From the NCBI RefSeq assembly GCF_045037415.1, contig NZ_CP173438.1: a stretch of DNA of 64,000 nt. The stretch is one strand, 5' to 3'. The notes under the pieces were generated by a model. That model had not been told where the DNA came from. It was given only the letters and a program-made list of their open reading frames with translations, and did no database searches. This document shows positions 17,045-17,173 of this stretch, in pieces; position 1 is the first letter of the stretch, and the number at the start of each line of letters is the position of its first letter. The stretch is from Escherichia coli (lineage in GTDB: Bacteria; Pseudomonadota; Gammaproteobacteria; Enterobacterales; Enterobacteriaceae). The position numbers were made by a program, and so were the translations under genes.

Positions 17045-17173
17045 TCCCTTTGCCGGGTGCCTGTCGCCCGGCACTTAAATCTCTTTGGAAGGCGTCTCGC
17101 AATCTGCTGAATTTAGCGGTGAAGAGTGCGCAGCCGTTGCCTATACTCCAGGCAGGAAACTGGAGGAAATCTC

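What the first reader, a model, noticed from the sequence alone, without database searches (positions are those of the whole stretch)
17045..17173. ahr and yjgR are directly adjacent: the idn (L-idonate) gene block present in K-12 is absent
As I recall the K-12 map, idnK and idnDOTR lie between ahr and yjgR. Here the two genes are separated by only about 130 bp with no IS scar visible. This marks the strain as different from K-12 and suggests the idn block is itself an insertion whose empty site this may be.
Basis: partly seen in the sequence, partly recalled or inferred. Interest (0 to 1): 0.35.

Follow-up and report, generated by a model that had tools for sequence, protein, structure and literature searches.

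The report
idn-less ahr–yjgR junction in ST131
This E. coli ST131 sequence carries the common version of the ahr–yjgR junction that lacks the optional five-gene L-idonate sugar-acid cluster found in K-12. This is an ordinary, already documented gene-content difference between strains.

Summary
In K-12 that gap holds idnK-idnDOTR.

Homology with K-12 stops exactly at the ahr stop codon and resumes at 17135. So 90 bp here (17045-17134) correspond to a 5,087-bp cassette in K-12, and the two share no detectable similarity.

The idn-less junction is the majority state. It occurs in 3,212 of 5,426 complete E. coli genomes, against 2,055 that carry idn. No idn orthologue sits elsewhere in idn-less genomes.

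The window is 100% identical to ST131 strains (JJ1886, EC958), for which absence of idnK is already published.

The 129-bp spacer is orthologous to the spacers of E. albertii and Citrobacter werkmanii, including a conserved post-ahr hairpin. It is therefore an intact old allele, not a deletion scar.

The cassette has lower GC (47% vs 54%) and 2-10 times lower synonymous diversity than its neighbours. It also occurs in an unrelated context in Kluyvera. These points favour "idn is the insert".

However, the same idn-bearing junction exists in a Citrobacter and in Salmonella, with no repeats or IS at its borders. The polymorphism is therefore ancient and is probably exchanged by homologous recombination. 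It is not a K-12-specific insertion.

Verdict: already known, low interest.

The parts
15745..15829 (-). tRNA-Leu(CAA) leuX, the integration hotspot that bounds the conserved segment on the left
   Evidence: ARAGORN. Annotated as tRNA-Leu in the strain 4/1-1 locus aligned to the window.
16025..17044 (+). ahr (yjgB), NADPH-dependent aldehyde reductase. Its stop codon is the exact left edge of homology with K-12.
   Evidence: NCBIfam NF047908 at 552.9 bits against a cut-off of 470. Annotation. The alignment to K-12 ends at 17044.
17045..17134 (+). 90 bp specific to the idn-less allele. In idn+ genomes it is replaced by the 5,087-bp idnK-idnDOTR cassette.
   Evidence: No alignment to K-12 across this stretch. 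Similarity to the cassette is no better than shuffled controls (score 14 against 12.7 +/- 1.6). Conserved in 7 diverse idn-less E. coli (at most 3 differences between any two of the seven 129-bp spacers), in E. albertii, and in part in C. werkmanii.
17051..17073 (+). GC-rich 9-bp-stem hairpin just after the ahr stop codon. It is probably the ahr terminator or a 3'-end stabiliser.
   Evidence: Fold energy -17.3 kcal/mol, z = -3.1. An equivalent hairpin sits at the same place in E. albertii, and in C. werkmanii with a different stem sequence. The terminator scan flagged it, but 1 hit against 0.6 expected is not significant.
17135..17173 (+). 39 bp proximal to yjgR that are shared by idn-less and idn+ alleles. 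They contain TATACT, a small hairpin and the GGAGG ribosome-binding site.
   Evidence: Homology with K-12 resumes at 17135. Conserved in E. coli of both allele types, in both Citrobacter genomes and partly in Enterobacter. No promoter reached the scan threshold.
17174..18676 (+). yjgR, a HerA-like P-loop ATPase of unknown role
   Evidence: ORF. Annotation. Only weak partial NCBIfam matches to HerA/CedD.
18837..21019 (-). lptG and lptF, used as conserved core neighbours to give a reference level of diversity
   Evidence: TIGR04408 LptG at 454 bits. Annotation. dS is 0.05 for lptG and 0.04 for lptF.

Best explanation
The window shows the idn-less allele of a two-allele presence/absence polymorphism between ahr and yjgR, in an E. 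coli ST131 genome.

**The two alleles**
- In the idn-less allele the genes are joined by an intact 129-bp spacer. It holds a post-ahr hairpin, 90 allele-specific bases, and 39 bases upstream of yjgR that both alleles share.
- In the other allele (K-12, CFT073, SE15) the 90 bases are replaced by a 5,087-bp catabolic cassette, idnK-idnDOTR. This is the GntII system for L-idonate and 5-ketogluconate.

**Origin**
- The idn-less spacer is an old, orthologous intergenic region. It is not a deletion scar.
- Most likely the cassette was placed there long ago by illegitimate recombination, at or before the divergence of the Escherichia, Citrobacter and Salmonella lineages, or was later moved between them. 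This step is inferred.

**How the state changes now**
- Both alleles have persisted. Strains switch state by ordinary homologous recombination in the flanking genes, in the recombination-prone leuX region. This is inferred from the diversity patterns.

**Consequence for this strain**
- It lacks the subsidiary L-idonate/5-ketogluconate pathway and the second gluconokinase.
- It keeps the main GntI gluconate route. That route is established knowledge of the pathway and was not examined here.
For: **Shown directly**
- Exact breakpoints lie at 17044 and 17135.
- The 90 bp and the cassette are not similar.
- 3,212 of 5,426 complete genomes have the contiguous junction and 2,055 have idn, always on the chromosome.
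- There is no divergent idn copy in the remaining genomes.
- The spacer is orthologous in E. albertii and C. werkmanii, and the hairpin is conserved structurally.

**Favouring the cassette as the derived insert**
- GC content is 47.3% in the cassette against 53.9% in the flanks.
- The same five-gene module sits in an unrelated neighbourhood in Kluyvera.
- Synonymous divergence among six idn+ genomes is 0.007-0.033 in the idn genes. It is 0.14 in ahr, 0.20 in yjgR, 0.04-0.05 in lptF/G and 0.105 in pepA.
- Every full-length idn cassette in E. coli is about 99% or more identical to K-12.

**Favouring exchange by homologous recombination**
- Flank haplotypes are not partitioned by idn status.
- Divergence between K-12 and CFT073 steps from about 5-6% to under 1% within about 30 bp of each cassette border.
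- Differences fixed between the two allele classes are confined to the last 25 nt or so of ahr.
- SE15 (B2) and O104:H4 (B1) share an almost identical leuX-integrase-ahr-idnK segment whose breakpoint lies inside idnD.
- Both states occur within ST131 (PMC5369007).
Against: - **Polarity is not proven.** Citrobacter sp. FP75 has idn at the same two junctions. A Salmonella-type contig has ahr-idnK-idnDOTR followed by a remnant of the yjgR upstream sequence.
- **Idn divergence looks vertical.** Idn proteins in these genomes are 80-96% identical to K-12, similar to the flanking proteins at 91-98%. This fits vertical descent of an idn+ ancestor as well as it fits an old transfer.
- **Low cassette diversity has another partial explanation.** It is carried by only about 38% of genomes, which gives it a smaller effective population.
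- **The contrast with the flanks is inflated.** ahr and yjgR are unusually diverse in their own right.
- **No recombination tract ends were mapped for ST131.** Divergence between the window and SE15 continues across all 8 kb compared.
Confidence: 0.72

Rival explanations
1. idn is ancestral at this site in the common ancestor of Escherichia, Salmonella and Citrobacter. On this view the idn-less spacer arose once, by an old deletion or replacement, and then spread between species and lineages by recombination. The window would then show a secondarily emptied site, not a never-occupied one.
For: - The ahr-idnK junction is the same in E. coli, Citrobacter sp. FP75 and a Salmonella-type contig, and the idnR-downstream sequence is homologous in all three.
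- Idn protein divergence is comparable with that of the flanking proteins.
- IdnD of E. coli has no close relative outside E. coli. The nearest full-length clusters are 82-84% identical, which argues against a recent import.
- Other B2 strains are idn+.
Against: - The 90 bp of the idn-less allele resemble nothing in any idn+ allele examined. A deletion cannot create them.
- Those 90 bp hold a structurally conserved post-ahr hairpin.
- The cassette has low GC and occupies a different genomic context in Kluyvera.
- Enterobacter carries a different gene at the same spot, so the site accepts insertions.
Confidence: 0.22
2. A recent, lineage-specific deletion of idn in the ST131 ancestor by illegitimate recombination, which left this junction as a scar.
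For: ST131 clade A strain SE15 and other B2 strains carry idn, whereas this window and JJ1886/EC958 do not (PMC5369007).
Against: - The junction in the window has the same 129-bp structure, and nearly the same sequence, as in 3,212 genomes of all backgrounds, including O157:H7. It is also orthologous to the E. albertii spacer.
- An independent deletion would not recreate 90 bp that are absent from idn+ genomes.
- A real deletion at this locus looks different. In strain OkiPb01709 an IS1 element bounds a truncated idnO.
Confidence: 0.03
3. The idn cassette is an active mobile element, such as a small island with site-specific integration next to ahr, and the window shows its unoccupied attachment site.
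For: - The cassette occupies the same position in three genera.
- There is a sharp step in divergence at the cassette borders.
- The cassette has atypical GC.
Against: - The cassette has no integrase, transposase or IS. All five genes are catabolic or regulatory.
- There are no direct or inverted repeats of 7 bp or more at its borders.
- The occupied site lacks 90 bp of the empty site, so the change is not a conservative integration.
- The cassette is never found on plasmids and almost never at a second place in a genome.
Confidence: 0.03

Closest known systems
E. coli K-12 GntII / idn locus (idnK-idnDOTR between ahr/yjgB and yjgR; L-idonate and 5-ketogluconate catabolism)
   Same: The chromosomal position and flanking genes are the same: leuX-ahr on one side and yjgR-lptG-lptF-pepA on the other.
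   Different: All five idn genes are absent here. 90 bp of unrelated intergenic sequence take the place of the 5,087-bp cassette.
Documented accessory status of idn in E. coli
   Same: The published examples are:
- idnK is absent from ST131 H30 JJ1886 and H22 S250 but present in H41 SE15 (PMC5369007).
- idnODRKT is present in 83% of pks+ genomes and about 31% of pks- genomes, and is variable among ST95 clades (PMC8545132).
- L-idonate degradation genes are enriched in some STEC groups (PMC4216125).

The window is 100% identical to JJ1886/EC958 over 23.8 kb, so this is the published case. The overall frequency found here, 38% idn+ among 5,426 genomes, agrees with those surveys.
   Different: Those papers report gene presence or absence only. 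They do not describe the exact breakpoints, the 90-bp replacement or the orthology of the idn-less spacer with other species. PMC5369007 also states that the remaining gluconate genes were present in JJ1886 and S250, which does not fit the complete absence of the cassette seen here.
Salmonella enterica idn cluster (STM4484 = idnD; absent from serovar Typhi; PMC6138749)
   Same: It is the same five-gene module placed directly after ahr in a Salmonella-type contig (cluster members are named Salmonella enterica). It is also variable within the species.
   Different: In that contig yjgR is missing and idnR is followed by lptG. Protein identity to K-12 is 82-95%.
Strain-specific segments without mobility genes (the K-islands and O-islands of K-12 versus O157:H7 comparisons; recalled from the literature, not checked here)
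   Same: This is a block present in K-12 and absent from O157:H7. It lies at a fixed chromosomal point, has atypical GC and carries no mobility genes.
   Different: No difference of kind was found. This appears to be one such segment.

Membership tests
idn+ (K-12-type GntII) locus | Orthologues of idnK, idnD, idnO, idnT and idnR lie between ahr and yjgR | tested here: not met
   Only 129 bp separate ahr and yjgR. tblastn finds only 21-33% paralogues elsewhere in the window.
idn-less ahr-yjgR allele (majority E. coli type) | Contiguous alignment across the ahr 3' end, the 129-bp spacer and the yjgR 5' end | tested here: met
   3,212 of 5,426 genomes align over at least 80% of the 1,131-bp junction query in one place, at 94-100% identity. 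Seven sampled spacers are all 129 bp long and differ from one another at no more than 3 positions.
idn-less ahr-yjgR allele (majority E. coli type) | No idn orthologue anywhere else in the genome | tested here: met
   Tested at collection level. idnD-O-T matches are bimodal: 2,053 genomes at 95% or more, and all others only the gntT paralogue at about 65%. The source genome of the window could not itself be scanned. Its ST131 identity and PMC5369007 support the same conclusion.
Mobile genomic island or transposon insertion (as a description of the idn cassette) | An integrase, transposase or IS within or at the edge of the block | tested here: not met
   The K-12 annotation of the block lists only idnK, idnD, idnO, idnT and idnR.
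Mobile genomic island or transposon insertion (as a description of the idn cassette) | Target-site duplication, att-like direct repeats or terminal inverted repeats at the borders | tested here: not met
   No direct or inverted k-mer of 7 bp or more is shared between the two 100-bp border regions.
Mobile genomic island or transposon insertion (as a description of the idn cassette) | Base composition unlike the flanks | tested here: met
   GC is 47.3% in the block and 53.9% in the flanks.
Mobile genomic island or transposon insertion (as a description of the idn cassette) | The empty site is restored exactly when the element is absent (conservative insertion) | tested here: not met
   The empty allele has 90 bp that the occupied allele lacks.
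Deletion scar | The junction is composed of sequences that flank the deleted block in occupied genomes, or an IS sits at the junction | tested here: not met
   The 90 bp match nothing in the idn+ loci of E. coli, Citrobacter, Salmonella or Kluyvera. By contrast, strain OkiPb01709 shows an IS1-bounded truncation.

The most novel reading that the evidence does not exclude
The ahr-yjgR junction may be a long-lived presence/absence polymorphism shared across genera (Escherichia, Citrobacter, Salmonella). It would be kept by niche-dependent selection for L-idonate/5-ketogluconate use. The unusually high synonymous diversity of ahr and yjgR would then be a footprint of that long coexistence, and not merely a side effect of the leuX recombination hotspot. 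That diversity is dS 0.14-0.20, against 0.04-0.05 in lptF/G, with alleles up to 6.9% apart when E. albertii is only 9-12% away.
Probability: 0.2. Interest if true: 0.4.

Novelty: already known. Interest (0 to 1): 0.12.

Why it matters
**Practical meaning**
- This ST131 genome cannot use L-idonate or 5-ketogluconate through the GntII route and lacks the second gluconokinase.
- Published surveys have linked the presence or absence of this trait to colonisation in E. coli and Salmonella (PMC8545132, PMC6138749, PMC4216125).
- As a genome feature it is a routine accessory-gene difference.

**What this analysis adds**
- The idn-less junction is an intact, conserved intergenic allele and the majority state in E. 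coli. K-12 is the unusual reference here.
- Anyone annotating "deletions relative to K-12" at this locus would have the description backwards or oversimplified.

Tried and rejected
1. **Remnant of the cassette in the 90 bp.** I looked for any trace of the idn cassette in the 90 bp, on both strands and against K-12, Citrobacter FP75, Salmonella-type and Kluyvera loci. Nothing scored above shuffled controls.
2. **Shared motif C(T/C)CTTTGCCGG.** It begins the 90 bp and ends the K-12 cassette, which suggested repeat-mediated deletion. I rejected this because the left border of idn+ alleles has no copy, and FP75 and Salmonella differ at that motif.
3. **An apparent third allele in strain MLI104K2** (88% fragments of idnT and idnR). 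The 930 bp are homopolymer-rich junk that mixes both alleles, so this is an assembly artefact.
4. **Known RNA or promoter in the spacer.** There is no Rfam match at E <= 1 and no sigma-70-like site. The hairpin in the yjgR 5' region is no better than shuffled sequence.
5. **Mapping the recombination tract between ST131 clade A (SE15) and the window.** Divergence continues over the whole 8 kb available, so no tract end was found.
6. **The genome-collection scan with YjgR.** Only E. albertii, two Citrobacter and two Enterobacter loci were useful.
7. **Recent import of idn into E. coli from Salmonella or Citrobacter.** Rejected, because the nearest IdnD outside E. coli is only 82-84% identical.

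Full report
**1. What is in the sequence**

- tRNA-Leu(CAA), leuX, lies at 15745-15829 on the minus strand.
- An ORF ending at 17044 matches the NCBIfam Ahr equivalog at 552.9 bits against a cut-off of 470.
- An ORF starting at ATG 17174 and ending at 18676 is the HerA-like protein YjgR.
- lptG and lptF follow on the minus strand.
- The strain 4/1-1 locus is 100% identical to the 1,131-bp junction query. It carries exactly this annotation: leuX, ahr, yjgR, lptG, lptF, ytgA, pepA, holC, valS.
- In K-12 the same two genes are separated by idnK (opposite strand) and idnD, idnO, idnT, idnR. The recollected map is correct.

**2. Exact breakpoints**

- Pairwise alignment of the window to K-12 stops at the last base of the ahr stop codon (17044). 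It resumes at 17135, which is 39 nt before the yjgR start.
- So 90 bp in the window (17045-17134) stand opposite 5,087 bp in K-12.
- The two are unrelated. The best local alignment of the 90 bp to the cassette scores 14, against 12.7 +/- 1.6 for shuffles. A short-word BLAST against idn+ loci of four genera finds only the shared 39 bp.
- The K-12 cassette borders share no direct or inverted repeat of 7 bp or more. The cassette holds no mobility gene.
- This is a replacement polymorphism, not a clean insertion or deletion.

**3. Frequency, and whether idn sits elsewhere**

- Among 5,426 complete E. coli genomes, 3,212 align across the junction in one piece at 94-100% identity.
- 2,055 genomes carry the idn cassette. 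It is always chromosomal, with a median of one place per genome.
- The place counts imply about 2,060 genomes with a split junction, which matches the number carrying idn.
- A sensitive blastn with idnD-idnO-idnT gives a bimodal result. 2,053 genomes match at 95% or more, and all others match only the gntT paralogue at about 65%.
- idn-less genomes therefore have no diverged copy elsewhere.
- The window itself has only distant paralogues.
- The idn-less junction is the majority state, and K-12 is the minority type.

**4. Which strain this is**

- 23.8 kb of the window (yjgR to mgtA) is 100% identical to many ST131 genomes, including JJ1886, JJ1887, EC958 and several labelled O25b:H4-ST131.
- PMC5369007 reports that idnK is not detected in ST131 H30-Rx JJ1886 or H22 S250, but is present in H41 SE15.
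- PMC8545132 lists idnODRKT as accessory genes: 83% of pks-positive against about 31% of pks-negative genomes, and absent from one ST95 clade.
- PMC4216125 finds L-idonate degradation genes enriched in some STEC groups.

**5. Is the spacer an empty site or a scar?**

- E. albertii NBRC 107761 and Citrobacter werkmanii NBRC 105721 also have ahr directly followed by yjgR.
- Their spacers align with the window's along their whole length, including most of the 90 allele-specific bases.
- A 9-bp-stem GC-rich hairpin directly after the ahr stop (17051-17073; -17.3 kcal/mol; z = -3.1) is present in all three. In Citrobacter the stem sequence is different. This fits a conserved terminator or 3'-end structure, although the T-tract is poor and the scan hit is not above chance.
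- Seven idn-less E. coli chosen across the identity range all have a 129-bp spacer, and no two of them differ at more than 3 positions.
- A real deletion at this locus looks different. Strain OkiPb01709 has IS1 abutting a truncated idnO.
- The window's spacer is therefore an intact, old, orthologous intergenic allele.

**6. Evidence that the cassette is the insert**

- Cassette GC is 47.3% against 53.9% for the flanks.
- The same five-gene module is found in Kluyvera between unrelated genes.
- Enterobacter carries a different gene, a 548-568-aa dihydroxyacetone-kinase-like ORF, between ahr and yjgR. The site has accepted other DNA.
- Within E. coli the cassette is much less diverse than its surroundings:

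| Region | Measure | Value |
|---|---|---|
| idn genes | K-12 vs CFT073 identity | 99.0-99.9% |
| ahr | K-12 vs CFT073 identity | 95.1% |
| yjgR | K-12 vs CFT073 identity | 94.2% |
| idn genes | mean dS, six idn+ genomes | 0.007-0.033 |
| ahr | mean dS, six idn+ genomes | 0.14 |
| yjgR | mean dS, six idn+ genomes | 0.20 |
| lptG | mean dS, six idn+ genomes | 0.05 |
| lptF | mean dS, six idn+ genomes | 0.04 |
| pepA | mean dS, six idn+ genomes | 0.105 |

- The change in divergence between K-12 and CFT073 falls within about 30 bp of each cassette border.
- All full-length cassettes are about 99% or more identical to K-12.

**7. Evidence that complicates that reading**

- Citrobacter sp. FP75 has ahr-idnK-idnDOTR-yjgR, and its right junction is homologous to that of K-12.
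- A Salmonella-type contig has ahr-idnK-idnDOTR followed by a remnant of the yjgR upstream sequence and then lptG, with yjgR itself missing. Its IdnD cluster members are named Salmonella enterica. STM4484 is idnD according to PMC6138749, which also reports the genes absent from serovar Typhi.
- Idn proteins of these genera are 80-96% identical to K-12, close to the 91-98% of the flanking proteins.
- No IdnD closer than 82-84% exists outside the E. coli cluster.
- Both alleles are therefore old and occur in more than one genus. An IdnD is even recorded for some C. werkmanii.
- Part of the low cassette diversity is expected simply because only 38% of genomes carry it.
- ahr and yjgR are unusually diverse in their own right. 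E. coli alleles differ by up to 6.5-6.9%, while E. albertii is only 9-12% away.

**8. How strains change state (inferred)**

- Flank haplotypes do not sort by idn status. Within-class and between-class distances are similar.
- Class-specific fixed differences are limited to the last 25 nt or so of ahr: GAT TTT TGA in idn+ against GAC TTC TGA in idn-less genomes.
- SE15 (B2) and O104:H4 (B1) share a leuX-side integrase/MobH element, an ahr allele with 1 difference in 1,020 bp, and near-identity that ends inside idnD. This looks like a transferred tract that crosses phylogroups.
- Both states occur in ST131. The window differs from SE15 by 3.8% in both ahr and yjgR, far more than the divergence I would expect within one sequence type (an expectation from general knowledge, not measured here).
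- The simplest account is allelic replacement by homologous recombination in the flanks. The 90-bp/5-kb heterology would act as a barrier at which exchange tracts end.
- From memory, the leuX region has been described as a recombination hotspot in E. coli. I did not verify this in the library.

**9. Verdict**

The site is a genuine unoccupied-type allele, and the cassette is more likely the derived insert (about 0.6-0.7).
- However, the change is a replacement without mobility signatures. It is ancient and shared across genera, and the idn-less form is the majority in E. coli.
- The gene-content difference is already published for this very lineage, so interest is low.

Noticed in passing
window 16025-17044 and 17174-18676: ahr and yjgR are unusually diverse within E. 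coli. Mean pairwise nucleotide difference is 4.0% for ahr and 4.9% for yjgR, with maxima of 6.5% and 6.9% (dS 0.14 and 0.20). lptG and lptF next door show 1.5% and 0.9% (dS 0.05 and 0.04). The divergence is patchy, with 7-8% blocks, as if old or introgressed alleles were being shuffled.
   Followed up: partly
L091 (SE15) and L092 (O104:H4), locus positions 1-3500: A B2 strain and a B1 strain share the same leuX-adjacent tyrosine recombinase and MobH relaxase, and an ahr allele differing at 1 of 1,020 bases. They show only 5 differences up to about position 3500, inside idnD, after which divergence rises. This looks like a recombination tract transferred between phylogroups that ends inside the idn cassette.
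   Followed up: partly
L096 9340-9545 (Salmonella-type contig): yjgR is missing. idnR is followed by about 200 bp and then lptG. The first bases after idnR still resemble the yjgR upstream sequence of E. coli and Citrobacter.
   Followed up: partly
L005 8217-9863 and L006 8224-9930 (Enterobacter): A 548-568-aa ORF on the opposite strand lies between ahr and yjgR. By its sequence it is dihydroxyacetone-kinase-like, though it was not scanned against family models. This is a third kind of occupant of the same intergenic site.
   Followed up: no
L084 7959-8886 (E. coli MLI104K2): About 930 bp of homopolymer-rich sequence lie between ahr and yjgR. They begin as a chimera of the idn+ and idn-less junctions and contain 84-88% fragments of idnT and idnR. 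This is almost certainly an assembly or polishing artefact, and part of it is annotated as a LacI-family pseudogene.
   Followed up: yes
L095 3721-5015 (E. coli OkiPb01709): IS1A abuts a 5'-truncated idnO. idnK, idnD, ahr and leuX are not in their usual place. This is an example of a true IS-mediated loss at this locus.
   Followed up: no
window 1-15700 (left of leuX): The leuX island of this ST131 genome is heavily decayed. It has a truncated P4-type integrase (14968-15558, minus strand), fragments of IS66, IS3 and IS4, a split PfkB kinase, and an intact-looking sugar-acid operon (IclR regulator, DapA-family, UxaA-family, PdxA-family, MFS transporter).
   Followed up: no
window about 30082-31678 (minus strand): A roughly 1.6-kb "DNA-binding protein" gene between argF and tabA is annotated as a frameshifted pseudogene in strain 4/1-1. 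Other ST131 genomes that are 100% identical over 17174-41000 also list a DNA-binding protein under this stretch.
   Followed up: no
hit H30 (plasmid NZ_CP172870.1, 120 kb): A plasmid carries a 395-bp stretch 93.7% identical to ahr, annotated as zinc-binding dehydrogenase. Another plasmid (NZ_CP133658.1) carries an idnO-like gene at 68%.
   Followed up: no
window 17146-17165: A small hairpin (CUCCAG...CUGGAG) in the yjgR leader has a 3' arm that overlaps the GGAGG ribosome-binding site. It is conserved in E. coli of both alleles. However, its stability is no better than shuffled sequence, and it is altered in Citrobacter.
   Followed up: partly
PMC5369007, section on gluconate genes: The paper reports only idnK as missing from ST131 JJ1886 and S250, and says all other gluconate-related genes (its list includes idnT and idnDOTR) are present. 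Here the whole idnK-idnDOTR block is absent from the identical junction sequence, and no diverged idnD-O-T copy exists in idn-less genomes. The paper's BLAST probably picked up paralogues.
   Followed up: partly
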